A stretch of 64,000 nt of DNA from the human T2T-CHM13v2.0 reference genome, Homo sapiens (GCF_009914755.1 NC_060933.1); one strand, 5' to 3'; numbered from the stretch's first letter, positions 2,181 through 23,562 are shown. Program-made: numbers and translations. The notes: generated from the letters alone by a model not told the origin.

Positions 2181-8288
<6,108 letters not shown>

Positions 8289-9135: not shown

Positions 9136-9698
9136 TTTAAAAATCTCCCCAATCCCCATAACCCCCAGCCTCTGGTAACAACCATTCTACTCTCCACCTC
9201 TATGAGTTCAACTTTTAATATTCTGCATATGAGTGAGATCATGCAGTATTTGTCTTTCTGTGCTTGGCTTCTTATTCCACTTAACATACTGTTCACTCCT
9301 AGTTCATTCATGTTGTTACAAATGACAGGATCTCATTCTTTTTTAAGGCTAAATAGTATCCCATTGTGTATATATAGCACATTTTCTTTATCCATTCATC
9401 TGTAGACAGACACTTGGATTGATTCCGTATCTTGCCTATTGTGAATAATGCTGCAATGAACATAGGAGTGCAGATATTTCTTCAACAGATTGATTTCCTA
9501 TCTTTTGGATAGATACCCAGTAGTGGGATTGCTGGATCATAGGGTAGTTCTTTTTTTTTTTTTTTTTTTTATTTTGAGTAAACTCCATACTGTTTTCCAT
9601 AATGACTATACTAATCTACATTTCCACCAACAGTGTGCAAGGGTTCCCTTTTTTCACACATCCTCACCACCGCTTTTGTCTCTTTTATAATAGTCATC

Positions 9699-10153
9699 TT
9701 CTATGGTTTGCATATGGTTGGTTTGTCTCCACCAAACCTCATTTTGAAATTTTATCCCCAACATGGAGGTGCTGGTAGGTGGTGCCTAATGAGAGGTATT
9801 TGGGTCACGGAGGCAGATCCCTCATGAATGGCTTGGTGCCACCCTCATGGTAGTTGAGTTCTAGCTCTAGTGAGATAGGATTAGTTTTGCTGGGATTGAA
9901 TTAGATCCTGTGAGAGTGAGTTGTTACAAAGCCAGGACGCCCCTCAGCTTTGGTCCCTCTTTGCATGTGCCCACTTCCACTTTTACTTTCTCTGCCACGT
10001 TTTAAGGCAGCATAAAAGCCCTCACCAGAAGCTACACAGATGCAGGTGTCATGCTTCTTGTACAGCCTGTAGAACCATAAGCTAAATAAACCTCTTTTCT
10101 TTATAAATTACCCAGCCTCAGGTATTCCTTTATAGCAAGACAAAACAAAGACA
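9699..10153 (+). mobile_element. MaLR solo LTR (MSTA/MSTB-like)
   Basis: Start t(t)ctatggtttg. Diagnostic ttgtacagcctgtagaaccataagctaaataaacctcttttctt...cccagcctcaggtattcctttatagcaa, ending in aca. Confidence 0.88.
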
Positions 10154-10517
10154 CCATTATTCTTTTTTTTCCCCCATTGGTTATTGGGGTACAGGTGGTA
10201 TTTGGTTACATTAGTAAGTTCTTTAGTGGTGACTTGTGAGATTTTGGTGCACCCATCACCAGAGCAGTATACACTACACCCTATTTGTAGTCTTTTATCC
10301 CTCACCCACCTCCCACCCTTCCTCACAAGTCCCCAAAGTCCATTGTTTTATTCTTAAGCCTTTGTGTCCTCATAGCTTAGCTCCCACATATCAGTAAGAA
10401 CATACAATGTTTGGTTTTCCATTCCTGAGTTGCTTCACTTAGAATAATAGTCTCCAATCTCATCCAGATCACTGTAAATGCTGTTCATTCCTTTTTATGG
10501 CTGAGCAGTATTCCATC

Positions 10518-10655
10518 GTGTATGTGTATATATATACATATATATATATATGTATATATATACACATACATATACACACACACATGTATATGTACACATA
10601 CACACGTATGTATATGTGTGTGTATATATATATATATATGCACATATACACACAC
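10518..10655. repeat. Compound (TA)n/(CA)n/(TG)n microsatellite inside L1PB
   Basis: Directly visible alternating purine-pyrimidine tract. Confidence 0.95.
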
Positions 10656-11039
10656 CACAGTTTATCGACTTGTTGACTGATGGGCATTTGGGTTGGTTCC
10701 ATGATCTTGCAATTGTGAATTGTGCTGCTATAAACATGCGTGCGAAGTATCTTTTTCATATAATGACTTCCTTTCCTCTGGGTAGATACCCAGTAGCGGG
10801 ATTGCTGTATCAAATGGTAGTTCTACTTTCAGTTCTTAAAGGAATCTCCACACTGTTTTCCACAGCGGCTGTACTAGTCTACATTCCCACCAGCAGTGTT
10901 GCCTGATCACCACATCCACGCCAACATCTACTTTTTAAAATTTTTTTATTATGGCCATTCTTGCAGAAATAAGGTGGTATTGCATTGTAGTTTTTATTTG
11001 CATTTCCCTGATGATCATTAGTGATGTTTAGCATTTTTT

Positions 11040-12839
11040 TAACAAAATTTTTATTTAATAAATGGTTAAAATCGCAGTGCCAAAAATACATTAACATTTA
11101 ACAATTTCACTGAAAGGAAAAAACTGTAGAATGCACAGTTTCAGAAAGCTATTTTAAGTTATTTACAAATAAAGTGTCTAAAACGCAAAGGCAGGCTCTA
11201 TATGCTTTACCAAATTTATCCCTTCCCGAACAAAATTTCTGTTATTTGGGCAAATCCTTAAACCATGGTTTAAACCGTAATGGTTACAAACCACAAATGC
11301 ATCCATCCAAAGACTGTGAAACCATTTTCATCCGGTCAGTGGCAAAACTGTTGAAAGGGCAATAGTTGAAGCTATTGGGTTTTATACAGTGTGAACTGTT
11401 GATATATATTCCTACCAGGACTAAAACACAGCACACTTTGCAGGCATGGCTGACTCACAAAGGTTGTAACAAACAAGAACTGCTCTTTACTCGACACCAC
11501 AGCTCAGAGGCCACCGAGAAGCACAAGCGACTGACAGCTCCTCTGCTTACAAAAGAATGAAACCCAAAGTGGGTGTCGTTCTCACAGCACTGAAAGTGCT
11601 TCAGGACTTGCACTGATCCAATACTAACTTTCTTCCCTATTTTACACACATTTTTCTACTGTCCAATGGAAGTCATTTTCTGTTTTGGCTAAACAACAAA
11701 TACTAGTGTATAACAGGAATGGTTAAAATCCGTGAGAATTCTGCTTAATTTAAGACATGATCACTACTTCCTTTAGAATGGTTTCTGTGTGTTTCTATGT
11801 CACCCTCTGTATTTTTAGCTTCCAGTTTCCTGGTAAGGAGTAAGTTCTCCTTCCCAGTCACACTCGGGGTCATTTACACATTTCTGGGATACCCTCGCTC
11901 GTCCACGGAGGGCTGGTGCACGCAGTGACTCATTCTGCCTCTTCCCTGTTCTCAGGATCTGTCCCCGAACCTTTTGCCTTGCAGTTCCTCCCGCTTCCGC
12001 CACACGCGAGCTCCCGGATCATACAGCTGCAAGGCCGGCCGGTCCTCGTTTGCCAGTCACTCCTTTCTGGGTGCCGGACCGTCATCACACCTCTGCACTC
12101 TTCCTGGTCTCTCCACGGCCTCCCTCGGAGCCCCGCTGTCCCGGCTCCCCCATCTCTGCTAATCTTCACGCCTTCTGGAAAGCCAGTCAGGCTCGTGGTG
12201 AGCTCTGTGCCTCCTGCCGTCATCCACATGCTGTCTTTGTGCTTCAGATTCTTTTTCTTGAGATCTCTCCACATCCCTGTGCTCTTTGTCACTGCTGCTG
12301 TGTGACCTTAATCCTTACTTCTCTGCAATTTTCTTCGGTTTATCTCATTTTTTGCATCTCTTTTCTTTTTTCCTCTTCCCGCAAACGTTTCTTTTCTCTC
12401 TCCTCCTCCGTTCTTCTCGCTTCTCTTCTCGAATTCTCTGCTTTTCTAATTTTCTATTTTTAATATATTCCAAAATAGGTGTAGTTCTTCTAGCAATGAG
12501 CTCTCTTGTCTTCGCCTCCATCTCCCCCAGCAGTCTCAGGGTTGGCACTGGTCTTCTCTTCCTCCACACAGTAGGTTTCTAAAAAGTTTTTATATTCTGG
12601 ATCTCAGGTCGGCGGCAAAGAACTGGAAGTAGTCGTGCGTGGGCAGCGGGCGCAGCTGCTCCTTGGTGAGGCCCGGGGCAGGAGGCGGATGACCGCCTGC
12701 AGGGAGCGCACGGCCGTTCCCACAGCGGCGGGGCGTGGACACGGCGCACCTGAGGCACAGTGTACCGCGCTGGGAGGCCAGGGCTCCGCCCCCCGACCCT
12801 GTCCCCCGCCCCTCCCCCTCCGCTCAAGGCCGTCCTCTC
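11040..12839 (-). pseudogene. UPF3AP3: UPF3A processed pseudogene (probably UPF3AP3), 5'-truncated and frameshifted, with 3'UTR
   Basis: Translated pieces match recalled UPF3A (LLGEMEAKTRELIARRTTPILEYIKNRKLEKQRIREEKREERRRR; CKAKGSGTDPENREEAE*, stop at 11930). Exon-exon junctions are fused. AATAAA at 11050-11055(-), short A tail, decayed TSD gatgtt(ta/ga)(g/t)catttttt at 11023-11039 and 12840-12856. The pseudogene number is from memory. Confidence 0.92.
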
Positions 12840-13778
12840 GATGTTGATCATTTTTTCATATGTTTGTTGGCCATTTGTGTATCTTTTGAGAACTGTCTAT
12901 TCATGTCCTTAGCCCACTTTTTGATGAGATTATTTGTTTTTTTCTTACTGATTTAAGTTCATTGTCGATTCTGGATGTTAGTCCTTTGTCAGACGTATAG
13001 ATTGTGAAGATTTTCTCCCACTCCATGGGTTGTCAAAGACACCATTCTAATATCTTTGATGATTAGTGATGTTGAGCACTTTTTCATATACCTATTGGCC
13101 GCTTGTGTGTCTTATTTTGAGAAATGTTTATTCAGATGCCTTACCCATTTTCAATCAGGTTGTTTTCTTACTATTGATTTGTTTGGATTCTTTATATATT
13201 TTAAGTATTAACCCCTCATCAGATGTATGGTTTGCAAATCCTTTTTCCCATTCTGTAGGTTGTTTTTTTCACTTTGTAGATTTCCTTCACTGTGCAGAAA
13301 CTTTTTAGTTTGACGTAATCCAATTTTTCTATTTTTGCTTTTATTGCCTGTGCTTTTGGGGTCATATCCAAAAATTTGTGGCCCACACTAATGTCATGAA
13401 GCTTTCCCTGTTTTCTTCAGTACTCTTAAAATTTCAGATCTTATGTTAATGTCTTTAATCTATTTTGAGATGATATTTGTATACGGGGCGAGATGAGGGT
13501 CTAATTTCATTCTTCTGCATGTAGATATCCAGTTTCCCCCCGCTTTTTCCAGCACCATTTATTGAAGAGACTCTCTTTTCTCTCTCTTTTTGGTGCTGGG
13601 AAAAGTGCACCTTTTTTGCACCATCGTCAAAAATCAATTGACCATAACCAGGGTCTCTAGTTTGCTAGGATTTTGTTGAGGACTTTTGCATCTATGTTTA
13701 TCAAGGATATTACCCTGTAATTTTCTTTTCTTGTAGTGTCCTAGTCTGACTTTGAATGTGTTTAAGAGTGTTCTCCCA

Positions 13779-14082
13779 GGCCGGTGCAGTGGCTCATGTC
13801 TCTAATCCCAGTGCTTTGGAAGGCCGTAAGTGGGAGGATCACTTCAGGCCAGGCCAGGAGCTTGAAACCAGCCTGGAAAACAGCAAGAATCCATCTCTAT
13901 AAAAAGTAAAAAAAAAATTAGGTGGGCATGGTGGCACATGCCTGTAGTCCCACCTACTCGGGAGGCTTGAGGTGGGATTACTTGAGCCCAGGAATTTGAG
14001 GCTGCAGTGAGTTATGATTGCTCCACTGCACGCCAGCCTGAGTGATAAAGCAAGATCCTGTATCAAAAAAAAAAAAAAAAAA
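13779..14082 (+). mobile_element. AluJ
   Basis: Dimeric Alu with J-type motifs (gagcccaggaatttgaggctgcagtgag) and A tail. Confidence 0.9.
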
Positions 14083-16294
14083 ACTTTCTCCCTTCTTCAA
14101 TTTTTTGGTAGTTTTAGAAAGAATGGTCATCAGGTCCTGGGCTTTTCTTTGATGGTAGACTTTTCATTACTGATTCAATCTCTTATTTGTTATTGGTTGC
14201 TATTGGTCTGTTTAGATTTTCTGTTTCATGATTCCACCTTGGTAGATTGTATGTGCCTAGTATTTTCTTCTACATTATTAATTTGTTGACATAATTATTC
14301 ATAGTAGCCTCTTATTCTTTTGTATTTCTGTAGTATCAGTTGTAATGTCTCCTCTTTCATTTCTTATTTTTTGAGACTTCTCTCTTTAATTCTAGCTAAA
14401 AGTTTTAAAATTTTATCTTTTTAAAAAACCAGCTATAGTTTTGTTGCTCTTTTCTATTGTTTTTCTAATCTCAATTTCATTTATTTCTTCTGATCTTTAT
14501 TATTTTCTTCCTTCTACTAAATTTGGGCTTGGTTTGTTCTTTTTCTAGTTCCTTGAGATGTAATGTTAGGTTGAGATCTTTCTTGTTTTCTGATGTAGGT
14601 GTTTCTTGCTATAAAACTTCCTTCCTAAAACTATTTTTGCTGCTTCCCATAAGTTTTGTTTGGTATGTTGTATTTCCATTTCCATTTTTTAAAAGATAAT
14701 TTAAAATTTCCCTTTTAAATTCTTCTTTGCTCCACTGGTTGTTCAGTAACATGTTTGATTTCTAGGTATTTGTGAATTTTCCAATTTACTCCCAGTTATT
14801 GATTTCTAGCTTCATACCATTGTGGTCAGAAAAGATATTTGATACAATTTTAATCTTCTTAAATTTGGTAAGACTTGTTTGTGGCCTAACATATGATCTA
14901 TCCTGAAGAATGTTCCATGGGCACTTGAGAAGAATGTGTATCTTGCTTCAGTTGAATAGAATGTTCTATATAAGTATGTTAGGTCCCTTTGAGCTAAAAC
15001 TATTTAAGTCCAAAATTTCCCTATTTTTCTGTCTGGATGATGTGGCCCTTGCTGAAAAAGTAGGGTATTGAAGTCCCCTACTATTACTGTATTATAGTCT
15101 CCTTTCAGATCTATTAATATTTTCTTTATATATTTTGGTGTTCCAATGTTGCATGCAGATATATTTGTAATTATTATATCCTCTTGCTGAATTGATCTCT
15201 TTATATTTACATAATGACCTTGCTTTACAGTTTTTGACTTAAATGTTATATAATTATAGCTACCCTGCCCTCTTTTGGTTTCCATATGTCCCGAATATCT
15301 GTTTACCTCCCTTCACTTTTAGTCTACCTGTGTCCCTTATAGGTGAAGCGAATCTCTTGTAGGCAGTTTATAGTTGGGTATTGGCTTTTTATCCATTCAG
15401 CCAGTCTCTGTCTTTTGACTGGAGAATTTAAGACATTTACATTCAAATTAATTATTGATGGGTAAAGACTACTGCCATTTTGTTAATTGTTCACTGGTTG
15501 TTTTGTAGATCCTTTGTTGCTTTCTTCCTCTCTTCTTGTCTTCCTTTGTGATTAGGTGATTTTCTCTAGTGGTAGGCTTTATTCCTTAATTTTTATCTTT
15601 CGTGTATTTACTAAAGTTTTTTGCTTTGTGGTTACCATGAGATTTACGTAAAATATAATTATAATAGGGTTTTTAAAATTTTTATTTTATTTTGTACATT
15701 TCTTCACTATGTCCTATGCTCATAACAGGCTATTTTAAGCTGATAAAAACTTTATTCACATAAAAAAAAAAAACTACACTTTTACTCTACCCTCCTCACA
15801 TTTTAAATTTCTGGTGTCATAATTTACATCTTTTTATATTGTGTATCCCTAAAATTATTGTAGCTATTATTATTTTAATAGTTCTGTCTTTTATCCTTCA
15901 TACCAAAGCTATAAGTGATTTATATACCACCATTACAGAATTAGAGTATTCTGAATTTGACTGTATACTTACTTTCACCAGTGAGTTTTATACTTTCACG
16001 TTTTCATGTTAGTACTTACTGTCCTTTTCTTTCAGCCTGAAGAACTCCCTTTTAGCATTCTTTTTAAGACAGGTCTGATGGTAATGAACTCCCTCAGCTT
16101 TTGTTCATCTGGGAAAGTCTTTAGCTCTCATTTCTGAAGGACAGCTTTGCCAGGTATTAATATAATATTGCTGGTTGGCAGTTTTCTTCCTTAAAGACTT
16201 TGAACATATCATCCCACTCTCTCCTGGTCTATAAGGATTCTGATGAGAAAACTGCTGCTAGCTGTACTGGAACTCCCCTTTATATGTTATTTGC

Positions 16295-19300: not shown

Positions 19301-20135
19301 GTAATTTTAGGATTGGGAATCTTCTACCAAACAACCACATCTCCACTGAAATATTTAGAACTCAGTGGGGTAATTCATTCTGCCATAGGACTACAAATCA
19401 TCCTCTGTGTAATTTAATCTTTTGAGATAAAAATGGCATTTAAATGAATTTTCAAAATAAAATGTCTAACTTGAATACCTGTATTGCTTAAACTTTTCGT
19501 ATAAGAAACATCTACATTTTTAACCACTGTATTTAACACCTCACAAAGCTGATAAAAATTCAGTATCTGTAGTAGCTACAAGGCTTGTACATATATTAAT
19601 ACTATAAATATCTGAGAATTGAGTCAGAAAGCTTACCTATTCTTGGAACAGTTCATAGCTATATGCCATTAGAAACGCCTAGTAATAGCAAGATTCATAA
19701 ATACTACTAATGTTCTTGCTATGTGAAGTCACGAATGAACAGCAATATTACCAATTTCCTTTACCCTGGCCTAAGGTTATAAGCTATTTTTCTCAATGTG
19801 CTTGGTAAAGACCAAACTCAATGAAGAGCTAATTTCTCACAAGACAAAAATTTTCTTTGAGAGATTGATTCCCAAGCATTAATCACTAATCATCCAAGCA
19901 TTCATTATCAATTCTAATCACTTAATGTTGGTATTTCTACAAGGCTATATCATAATGTTCATAATTATACCACACTCTATAGTGAAAAAAAGCAGCAGTC
20001 ACCCAAACCTCTCCCATCCAGTTAACAAAGTCTTACTGTTCCAACATAGGATTATTTAAAATATTCAAACAACTATTTTCAGTTCATTTTTGAAAAACAT
20101 ATCAGTAATTTTTAAAAAACAAAATGAATACTCAC

Positions 20136-20277
20136 AATACATCTTTGAAGTCTCCAAACACATACATATGCCTAAAGCTGTCAATAGCGATTACAGGACA
20201 ATCTGCTGGAGTTTTCTGTATGTGCAGAAGAGGATGTCTAAATTTGTCACAATCGGCATGTAAAAAGTTTATTGTAC
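20136..20277 (-). CDS. ERP44: ERP44 coding exon (probably exon 10, 142 nt): (G)TINFLHADCDKFRHPLLHIQKTPADCPVIAIDSFRHMYVFGDFKDV(L)
   Basis: Acceptor ttttcttaaag, donor GTGAGT. In frame, ends in phase 2. The remaining 3' exons (C-tail, RDEL) are not in the window. Confidence 0.97.
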
Positions 20278-22750: not shown

Positions 22751-23041
22751 TTTTTTTTTGAGACGGAGTCTCACTCTGTAGCCCAAGCTGGAGTGCACTA
22801 GTGCAATCTTGGCTCACTGGAACCTCTGCCTCCCGTGTTCAAACGATTCTCCTGTCTCAGCCTCCTGAGTAGCTGGGACAACAAGTGCACATCACCATGC
22901 CCAGCTAATTTTTTTGTATATTTAGTGGAGATGGGGTTTCACCATGTTGGCCAGGATGGTCTCAATCTCCTGACCTCATGATCCATCCCCCTCGGCCTCC
23001 CAAAGTGCTGGGATTACAGGCATGAGCCACTGCGCCCAGCC
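22751..23041 (-). mobile_element. AluS (Sc-like)
   Basis: Full antisense dimer. Confidence 0.92.
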
Positions 23042-23562
23042 CCAGAATATTTTTTATCACTTCAAAAAGAAACCACATACCCATTAGTAGTGATTCCCAT
23101 CTCCCCTCTCCCCACCCCCTGGCATCACATTCATCTTTTAGTAAGCTGATTTTTTTCTTCCTCATCTTTTATCTCTTGGACTCACATTTTTTCTTCCCCC
23201 ATCCATTAACTGATGCTGGTCTCAATGACTGTCTTTGGACTTCTCTGCTCTAGCCTGACAAGTTCATGTAGTTCAACAGTTTTGATCACTACTTCTAACT
23301 GATCGCTTATCTGTGTCTACAAGCCCAGCTCCAGTACAAAATCCAAGCCTAGGTTTCCATCTGCCTGCTTAATATCTCCATTTCAAATTCTAAACAAGTA
23401 CCTTAAATACTCAAAACTAATGCCTAGTCCCCTCCTCTCTAACCTCCTTCTCCTGTTTTCCCATTTTCTTTAGTACTTCTGCTTCTCTCTTAGCACTTTT
23501 CTTTTCAGGACGTAATGCCGCTTCTCTAAAGTCATCTCTCATTCCACTCCATCCCTGTCAAA

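What the first reader, a model, noticed from the sequence alone, without database searches (positions are those of the whole stretch)
11930..12839. UPF3A retrocopy preserves an aberrantly spliced isoform: intron 1 retained, exons 3+4 and 8 skipped
Seen on the minus strand: GAGAGGACGGCCTTGAGC (RTALS, end of exon 1), then ~125 nt of GC-rich non-coding sequence ending GCTCCCTGCAG (12821-12697), then exon 2. ...GCCGACCTGAG joins ATCCAGAATAT (ADL/PEYK) at 12603/12602, and GTAAGGATTAAG joins GTCACACAGC (VRIK/SHS) at 12307/12306. Against recalled UPF3A, the blocks LYPHLYSRAY...TGSIED and LLKKPEK...EPQE are missing, both junctions end in AG at what I recall as exon borders, and both shift the frame. 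The exon 1 donor region also appears deleted. Inference: L1 captured an unproductive, likely NMD-type transcript of an NMD factor, a record of ancestral germ-line UPF3A splicing.
Basis: partly seen in the sequence, partly recalled or inferred. Interest (0 to 1): 0.7.

Follow-up and report, generated by a model that had tools for sequence, protein, structure and literature searches.

The report
Old UPF3A retrocopy of odd transcript
This is a dead, roughly 30-40-million-year-old reverse-transcribed copy of the UPF3A gene made from an unusual messenger RNA that began in or kept intron 1 and skipped exons 3, 4 and 8; it is an ordinary kind of genomic fossil with one mildly interesting twist.

Summary
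On the minus strand, window 12839-11041 is an L1-type retrocopy of UPF3A (annotated UPF3AP3), nested in an older repeat and flanked by a 17-nt target-site duplication.

Aligned to the parent gene on chr13, it has:
- 143 nt collinear with the 3' 139 nt of the 174-nt intron 1;
- exon 2 joined to exon 5 at 12603|12602;
- exon 7 joined to exon 9 at 12307|12306.

Both skips fall exactly on exon borders. Exons 3+4 are 206 nt and exon 8 is 161 nt, so both shift the frame.

One correction: the 18-mer read as "RTALS, end of exon 1" also occurs 36 nt into intron 1, as a near-duplicate of the exon-1 end. The retrocopy is collinear with that intronic copy. It therefore holds no certain exon-1 sequence, and no donor deletion is needed.

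New here: the independent, young chr17 retrocopies (UPF3AP1/2, which lack exon 4) also begin in intron 1, only 14 nt further downstream. Both starts lie just after a CGCG/BANP promoter-motif core. I slightly favour a start site inside intron 1 (about 0.5) over intron retention with 5' truncation (about 0.4).

This is a known kind of genomic fossil; interest is low to moderate.

The parts
12840..12856 (-). 5' copy of the target-site duplication (AAAAAATGATCAACATC), part of the host repeat
   Evidence: It matches 11023-11039 at 15 of 17 positions. The host sequence continues on both sides of the insert.
12697..12839 (-). Intron-1-derived 5' end of the retrocopy, corresponding to parent intron 1 positions 36-174. 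Its first 18 nt equal the intronic near-duplicate of the exon-1 end.
   Evidence: It is collinear with gene 2942-3080 and ends in the acceptor CAG. 116 of 137 aligned positions are identical.
12603..12696 (-). Exon 2 (parent 107 nt), carrying a 12-nt deletion between direct repeats and a 1-nt deletion
   Evidence: The 12-nt repeat unit in the parent is shown (3115-3137, period 12).
12494..12602 (-). Exon 5, joined directly to exon 2. Exons 3 and 4 (206 nt in the parent) are absent.
   Evidence: The junction at 12603|12602 falls exactly on exon borders.
12438..12493 (-). Exon 6
   Evidence: An uninterrupted alignment block runs across the exon 5/6 and 6/7 junctions.
12307..12437 (-). Exon 7 (parent 159 nt), with several small deletions in its AG-rich low-complexity part
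12045..12306 (-). Exon 9 (parent 295 nt), joined directly to exon 7. Exon 8 (161 nt) is absent. Carries an internal 33-nt deletion.
   Evidence: The junction at 12307|12306 falls exactly on exon borders.
11041..12044 (-). Exon 10: the end of the coding-homologous region (stop at 11932-11930) and the 3' UTR up to the parent's polyadenylation site. AATAAA lies at 11055-11050.
   Evidence: 93.2% identity over 996 aligned positions. It ends where the chr17 and chr13:34.5M retrocopies also end.
11023..11040 (-). An A-run (7 A, 11040-11034) in which the remnant poly(A) tail and the start of the 3' target-site duplication (AAAAAATGCTAAACATC) cannot be separated

Best explanation
UPF3AP3 is a processed pseudogene made by L1 target-primed reverse transcription of a non-canonical UPF3A transcript. 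It inserted into an older L1-like repeat in an ERP44 intron, roughly 30-40 million years ago, and was non-functional from the start.

Shown: the template RNA had
- the last 139 nt of intron 1 continuous with exon 2;
- exon 2 spliced to exon 5;
- exon 7 spliced to exon 9;
- normal 5-6, 6-7 and 9-10 junctions;
- the normal poly(A) site.

My preferred reading of the 5' end is inferred, not shown. The RNA did not retain intron 1 downstream of exon 1. Instead it was initiated inside annotated intron 1, just downstream of the third, gene-proximal copy of the CGCG/BANP promoter-motif core in the UPF3A CpG island. With no exon-1 donor upstream, the intron-1 remainder plus exon 2 simply formed the first exon.

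Such an RNA lacks the canonical AUG. Its first AUG is the codon for Met202 in exon 5. Because exon 8 is skipped, the frame opened there closes after 86 codons, 277 nt upstream of the last junction. The RNA is therefore predicted to be non-productive.
For: Retrocopy hallmarks:
- A 17-nt target-site duplication, 15 of 17 positions identical.
- Five intron positions cleanly removed.
- The 3' end is at the parent's poly(A) site, as in two other UPF3A retrocopies.
- The parent is on another chromosome.
- The flanks resemble the repeat that hosts the chr17 copy, at 65-81% identity in the same orientation.

Splicing origin of the gaps:
- All 4 endpoints of the two large gaps lie on exon borders.

Internal start:
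- The copy begins at gene position 2942, the 36th base of intron 1.
- The chr17 retrocopy has a different target-site duplication (GAAAAATTGGGACCTAG), different exon content (lacks only exon 4) and a different age (K2P 0.014 versus 0.066-0.073). It begins at 2956.
- Exon 1 has no second copy anywhere in the assembly: 4 matches, namely the parent itself plus three that all start at query 303 or 317.
- CTCGCGAG occurs 3 times in the 10-kb locus, against 0.03 expected: at 2648-2655 ahead of the AUG, at 2875-2882 and at 2934-2941. The two retrocopy starts lie 1 and 15 nt after the third copy.
- Published work (passages read) shows the TCTCGCGAGA element suffices to drive initiation in CpG-island promoters (PMC6192621). 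It also shows that inserting BANP motifs closer to a gene moves the dominant start site downstream (bioRxiv 10.64898/2026.05.04.722487).

Age:
- K2P 0.066 over exons 5-10 (1554 sites) and 0.0725 over exon 10. The conversion to years uses recalled primate neutral rates.
Against: - No transcript-level data (CAGE, RACE, long reads) could be consulted, so no start site in intron 1 has been observed.
- The motif was noticed after the fact.
- Copies 2 and 3 of the motif have CCT/AGG flanks, which lowered reporter activity in PMC6192621.
- Two 5' ends are a small sample. Both lie in a 77%-GC region where reverse transcriptase may tend to stop.
- The third UPF3A retrocopy (chr13:34.5M) is plainly 5'-truncated, to 431 nt, so truncation does happen with this mRNA.
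- The chr17 5' junction shows a possible 2-nt microhomology (AG), a feature recalled as typical of truncated insertions.
- The first 18 nt of the chr9 copy could be exon 1 if the intronic near-duplicate arose after the insertion. This cannot be dated without outgroups.
Confidence: 0.5

Rival explanations
1. The template started at the canonical promoter and retained the short GC-rich intron 1, besides skipping exons 3+4 and 8. L1 reverse transcription then stopped inside intron 1, so exon 1 was never copied. In a sub-variant, the last 18 nt of exon 1 were copied and the ancestral intron lacked today's near-duplicate.
For: - Intron 1 is 174 nt and 77% GC. By recalled general knowledge, this is the type most often retained.
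- 5' truncation is common in retrocopies: 22-32% in bioRxiv 10.1101/2020.06.07.139212 (passages read).
- 5' truncation is seen in the chr13:34.5M UPF3A copy.
- The first 36 nt also align to the true exon-1 end, with score 39.
- Retention would give a stop after 85 codons, fitting an unproductive transcript.
Against: - It needs intron 1 retention in two independent templates, millions of years apart, plus truncation within 14 nt of each other. On a transcript of about 2.4 kb, a uniform chance of that closeness is about 1%. Within the roughly 490-nt GC-rich 5' part it is about 6%. These are my own rough arithmetic, not a tool result.
- Both cDNAs copied the whole G-rich run (gene 2956-2995). The likeliest block to the enzyme was therefore passed.
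- No copy in the genome holds unambiguous exon 1.
Confidence: 0.4
2. The copy was made from a normal or exon-4-lacking mRNA, and exons 3, 4 and 8 were lost later through genomic deletions in the pseudogene.
For: The copy does carry later deletions of 12, about 12-13, 14 and 33 nt within exons.
Against: - Those small deletions lie inside exons, mostly in repeats.
- The two large gaps have all 4 endpoints on exon borders, to within the 1-nt alignment ambiguity. Random deletions would hit this with negligible probability.
Confidence: 0.02
3. The 143-nt GC-rich 5' stretch is not UPF3A intron 1 but unrelated GC-rich DNA, or filler acquired at integration, that resembles it by composition.
For: Its first roughly 60 nt are G-rich low complexity, and their alignment is uncertain: four blocks with gaps.
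Against: - The 3' 86 intronic nt run in one ungapped block of 106 nt (90 of 106 identical) straight through the acceptor into exon 2.
- The whole block has E = 7e-63.
- The chr17 copies carry the same stretch at 97-98% identity to the parent.
Confidence: 0.01

Closest known systems
L1-mediated processed pseudogenes (retrocopies); this locus is annotated as UPF3AP3 in RefSeq
   Same: It has a target-site duplication, loss of introns, a 3' end at the mRNA poly(A) site, a location away from the parent, and decay of the reading frame.
   Different: The annotated span (11633-12816) is shorter than the insert bounded by the duplication (11041-12839). Part of intron 1 is present, so it is 'semi-processed' at its 5' end.
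Retrocopies as fossils of alternative or aberrant splice forms. Sources: Shemesh et al. 2006 PNAS (seen only as a reference-list entry in PMC5470649; content recalled) and bioRxiv 10.1101/2020.06.07.139212 (passages read), where retrocopies of 6 genes skip middle exons.
   Same: Exon-exact gaps in a retrocopy are read as the splice pattern of the template RNA.
   Different: Three departures from the reference mRNA are combined in one copy. The parent is itself an NMD factor. Each departure predicts a premature stop.
UPF3AP1/UPF3AP2 on chr17 (L016, L017)
   Same: Same parent gene and same 5' region: they start in intron 1 at gene position 2956, against 2942 here. They have the same poly(A) site and are also nested in an L1-like repeat.
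   Different: - They are much younger (K2P 0.014-0.015 to the parent).
- They were duplicated after insertion: both share one target-site duplication.
- They contain exons 3 and 8 and lack only exon 4. That is the known natural isoform, about one third of transcripts in HEK293 (PMC9108619, passages read).
CGCG element / BANP motif promoters (PMC6192621; bioRxiv 10.64898/2026.05.04.722487)
   Same: The 8-nt core occurs three times within 300 bp of the UPF3A CpG island. Multi-copy arrangements such as DENR and ZZZ3 are described in that paper.
   Different: Only the core was matched. Two of the three copies have CCT/AGG flanks, which were weaker in reporter assays. No binding or initiation data for UPF3A were seen.

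Membership tests
L1-mediated processed pseudogene | Parent introns are absent, with exon-exon joins exact | tested here: met
   Five joins (2|5, 5|6, 6|7, 7|9, 9|10) are exact. The exception is that 139 nt of intron 1 are present at the 5' end.
L1-mediated processed pseudogene | Flanking target-site duplication | tested here: met
   12856-12840 versus 11039-11023: 17 nt with 2 mismatches. The duplication starts with an A-run, as expected for the L1 endonuclease site (recalled).
L1-mediated processed pseudogene | Poly(A) tail at the mRNA's polyadenylation site | tested here: inconclusive
   The copy ends at the same site as the chr17 and chr13:34.5M copies. Only 7 A remain, and they merge with the A-run of the duplication.
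Retrocopy of an alternatively spliced isoform | Missing segments correspond to whole exons bounded by real splice sites in the parent | tested here: met
   Exons 3, 4 and 8 each have AG...GT borders in the parent. The gaps match them exactly.
Retrocopy of an alternatively spliced isoform | The same junctions (2-5, 7-9) are seen in transcript data | not testable with these tools
   No transcript database was available. The papers found and opened gave nothing on these junctions. Only exon-4 skipping is described (PMC9108619).
Intron-retention transcript | The upstream exon is contiguous with the retained intron | tested here: inconclusive
   The copy starts 36 nt into intron 1. Its first 18 nt match both the exon-1 end and its intronic near-duplicate, and the collinear fit favours the intronic one (score 74 versus 39).
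NMD-target isoform (50-55-nt rule) | The stop codon lies more than 50-55 nt upstream of the last exon-exon junction | tested here: met
   Computed on the parent sequence. From the canonical AUG the distances are 769 nt (exon 3+4 skip), 277 nt (exon 8 skip) and 1218 nt (intron 1 retained). For the intron-1-start model, the first AUG frame ends at nt 590, with the last junction at 867. Actual decay was not tested.
Transcript from an internal (intron 1) start site | Capped 5' ends mapped at that position | not testable with these tools
   The support is indirect only: two independent retrocopy 5' ends at 2942 and 2956, directly after a CGCG motif core.

The most novel reading that the evidence does not exclude
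UPF3A has a long-lived, unappreciated second start site inside annotated intron 1, in use from at least about 30 million years ago until about 7 million years ago. It is set by the gene-proximal copy of a triplicated CGCG/BANP motif.

Its transcripts lack the canonical AUG. When otherwise normally spliced, they would open at Met202 and encode a 275-residue UPF3A without the N-terminal UPF2-binding RRM-like domain but with the C-terminal EJC-binding part. Such a protein could act as a natural antagonist of NMD.

On this reading, the chr9 and chr17 retrocopies are two fossils of that promoter's germ-line output.
Probability: 0.25. Interest if true: 0.5.

Novelty: new member of a known kind. Interest (0 to 1): 0.25.

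Why it matters
By itself the locus is an annotated, dead pseudogene of a familiar type, and it changes nothing about ERP44 or UPF3A function.

Its modest value is as a dated record. About 30-40 million years ago the germ line made a UPF3A RNA that combined three unproductive features. Two independent retrocopies from different eras start within 14 nt of each other inside intron 1.

That gives a concrete, cheap prediction for existing CAGE and long-read data: either a start site in intron 1 next to a CGCG motif, or frequent intron-1 retention. If confirmed, it would add an N-terminally truncated or non-coding output to a gene whose role in NMD (activator or repressor) has been disputed.

Tried and rejected
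- Pfam scan of 7 translated pieces (5 from the flanks, 2 from the retrocopy): 0 families for all 7. The L1 identity of the host repeat therefore rests on my recall of L1 ORF2, plus the DNA similarity between the chr9 and chr17 flanks.
- Rfam on window 9500-14500: 0 matches.
- Literature:
  - UPF3AP1/2/3 occur in 4 papers, each apparently only as names (listing seen only).
  - The UPF3A searches and the passages read gave nothing on intron-1 retention, an internal start site, or 2-5 and 7-9 junctions.
  - Shemesh et al. 2006 is not held.
  - Supplements were not consulted. Table S5 of the 2020 preprint may say which UPF3A retrocopies are polymorphic.
- Later deletion as the cause of the missing exons: rejected because the endpoints are exon-exact.
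- Block of reverse transcription by the G-rich run as the cause of the shared 5' end: rejected because both copies include the whole run.
- First pass at exon 9: I set it 1 nt short, which gave a false 514-aa frame. This was corrected.
- The plus-strand 208-aa open frame at 11837-12463: this is the antisense of the AG-rich exon 7-9 region. I treat it as compositional.

Full report
**What is there**

Read on the minus strand, window 12839-11041 is a UPF3A-derived insert. It sits between two copies of a 17-nt sequence: 12856-12840 (AAAAAATGATCAACATC) and 11039-11023 (AAAAAATGCTAAACATC), identical at 15 of 17 positions. The sequence outside the insert continues across it. It also resembles, at 65-81% identity and in the same orientation, the repeat that hosts the chr17 UPF3A copies. 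From recall I identify it as the 3' part of L1 ORF2. Pfam found nothing in 7 short translated pieces.

The insert ends at the parent's polyadenylation site, 10 nt after an AATAAA (11055-11050). Only seven A follow, and they merge with the A-run of the duplication. RefSeq's UPF3AP3 span (11633-12816) is shorter than the insert.

**The parent gene and its exon model**

The assembly holds the parent at G000:C13:113490942-113514876. I fetched 29 kb. Exons were defined from three sources: the retrocopies, the splice sites and the reading frame.

| Feature | Gene coordinates | Length |
|---|---|---|
| Exon 1 (AUG at 2700) | to 2906 | |
| Intron 1 | 2907-3080 | 174 nt, 77% GC |
| Exon 2 | 3081-3187 | 107 nt |
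| Exon 3 | 3897-4003 | 107 nt |
| Exon 4 | 7362-7460 | 99 nt |
| Exon 5 | 7579-7689 | 111 nt |
| Exon 6 | 12548-12603 | 56 nt |
| Exon 7 | 12693-12851 | 159 nt |
| Exon 8 | 19899-20059 | 161 nt |
| Exon 9 | 22791-23085 | 295 nt |
| Exon 10 | from 25849 | |

Gene coordinate plus 113,488,000 gives the chr13 position. Joined, the exons give a 476-codon frame. My first setting of exon 9 was 1 nt short and gave a false 514-codon frame.

**Spliced alignment**

BLAST gives six collinear blocks, and a global alignment gives 20 blocks.
- The copy begins at gene 2942, the 36th base of intron 1.
- It runs through the acceptor into exon 2.
- It joins exon 2 to exon 5 at 12603|12602.
- It carries normal 5|6 and 6|7 joins.
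- It joins exon 7 (159/159) to exon 9 (1/295) at 12307|12306.
- It carries a normal 9|10 join.

All four endpoints of the two large gaps lie on exon borders. The smaller gaps are different. They are 12 nt between direct repeats in exon 2, several in the AG-rich part of exon 7, 33 nt in exon 9 and 14 nt in exon 10. They lie inside exons and look like later decay.

Exons 3+4 (206 nt) and exon 8 (161 nt) both shift the frame.

**The correction**

The parent shows a near-duplicate of the exon-1 end inside intron 1. GCAAACCTCGCGAGGAGAAGAGGACGGCCCTGAGCAAG|gt sits at the exon-1 end. GCAAACCTCGCGAGGAGAGGACGGCCCTGAGTGG follows 21 nt after the exon 1 donor.

That fit scores 74 over all 75 nt. The fit to the true exon end scores 39 over 36 nt and would also need a large deletion.

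The copy therefore holds no certain exon-1 base, and no 'deleted donor region' has to be assumed. I cannot exclude that the duplicate arose after the insertion. No outgroup sequence was available.

**Other copies**

Genome-wide searches were run with the chr9 copy, the chr17 copy and the parent's 5' region. Apart from two weak hits of about 60 nt to AG-rich sequence on chr7 and chr4, they find only the following:
- the parent gene;
- chr9;
- two chr17 copies;
- a 431-nt fragment at chr13:34.5M.

The chr17 copies share one target-site duplication (GAAAAATTGGGACCTAG), so they stem from one insertion that was later duplicated. They are 98.5-98.6% identical to the parent in exon 10. They contain exons 2, 3 and 5-10. 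They lack exon 4, the known natural isoform (PMC9108619, passages read). They begin at gene 2956, again inside intron 1 and 14 nt from the chr9 start.

The chr13:34.5M fragment has its own duplication (TAATAGAATATACAA) and an A-tail. It is a third, 5'-truncated event.

Exon 1 occurs nowhere but in the parent.

**How the 5' end arose**

Two readings remain.

(a) Internal start. The 8-mer CTCGCGAG is the core of the CGCG element / BANP motif. It occurs three times in the 10-kb locus, against 0.03 expected: 45 nt ahead of the AUG, in exon 1, and at 2934-2941 in intron 1. The two retrocopy starts lie 1 and 15 nt after the third copy. Published experiments show this element can drive initiation, and that a gene-proximal BANP site pulls the start site downstream (passages read). 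In the same work, CCT/AGG-flanked variants like copies 2 and 3 were weaker.

(b) Retention of the short GC-rich intron 1 in both templates, with reverse transcription failing at nearly the same place.

The closeness of two independent ends, the complete copying of the G-rich run, and the absence of exon 1 from all copies tilt me to (a), about 0.5 against 0.4. The sample is two, and the motif was noticed after the fact.

**Coding consequences**

These were computed on the parent sequence. From the canonical AUG:

| Event | Codons before the stop | Stop to last junction |
|---|---|---|
| Intron 1 retained | 85 | 1218 nt |
| Exons 3+4 skipped | 108 | 769 nt |
| Exon 8 skipped | 287 | 277 nt |

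For the intron-1-start model of the chr9 template, the first AUG is Met202 in exon 5. Its frame ends after 86 codons, 277 nt before the last junction.

Either way the template fits the 50-55-nt rule for NMD targets. Actual decay is not shown.

The pseudogene itself is broken in every frame. Its longest minus-strand open stretch is 125 codons, at 11930-12307.

**Age**

K2P to the parent is 0.066 over exons 5-10 (1554 sites) and 0.0725 over exon 10. Using recalled primate neutral rates of about 1.1e-9 per site per year, and some constraint on the parent, this suggests roughly 30-40 million years. The copy should therefore be shared by apes and Old World monkeys. That is a prediction, not a test.

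The chr17 insertion (K2P 0.014-0.015) would be under about 10 million years old.

**Comparison with what is known**

Retrocopies that preserve skipped exons or retained introns are a described class. Sources are Shemesh et al. 2006, seen only as a reference entry with its content recalled, and bioRxiv 10.1101/2020.06.07.139212 (passages read).

UPF3A is listed in that preprint among genes with polymorphic retrocopies. Nothing on the structure of UPF3AP3 was found: the name appears in 1 of the 4 papers, and I saw only the listing.

The finding is a new, well-resolved member of a known kind. Its one new element is the shared intron-1 5' end of two independent retrocopies.

Noticed in passing
L013:2648-2655, 2875-2882, 2934-2941 (T2T chr13:113,490,648-113,490,941): There are three copies of the CGCG/BANP motif core CTCGCGAG within 300 bp of the UPF3A CpG island, against 0.03 expected in 10 kb. 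The second and third lie in a 38-nt near-duplication that repeats the end of exon 1 inside intron 1.
   Followed up: partly
L018:3404-3834 (G000:C13:34528404-34528834, minus): This is a third, independent UPF3A retrocopy: only the last 431 nt of the 3' UTR, 99.3% identical to the parent. It has an A-tail and its own 15-nt target-site duplication (TAATAGAATATACAA). It is very young and may be one of the polymorphic UPF3A retrocopies mentioned in bioRxiv 10.1101/2020.06.07.139212.
   Followed up: partly
L016:4560-4620 and L017:4700-4790: The G-rich (GGGAG)n run of intron 1 at the 5' end of the two chr17 copies differs in length between them; it is expanded in L017. The tract has therefore been unstable since the segmental duplication.
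   Followed up: no
window 11041-12839 within the ERP44 intron below exon 20136-20277: The retrocopy lies in the same (minus) orientation as its host gene ERP44 and brings an intact AATAAA (11055-11050) into the intron. Whether it is ever used as an ERP44 poly(A) site was not examined.
   Followed up: no
window 10505-10700: A TA/CA-rich microsatellite-like stretch (it translates as runs of YIYIYI / VYVYV in several frames) lies within the host repeat, about 350 nt beyond the retrocopy.
   Followed up: no
window 11633-12816 versus 11041-12839: The curated RefSeq span of UPF3AP3 omits about 590 nt of 3' UTR-derived sequence and 23 nt at the 5' end of the insert as bounded by the target-site duplication.
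   Followed up: yes
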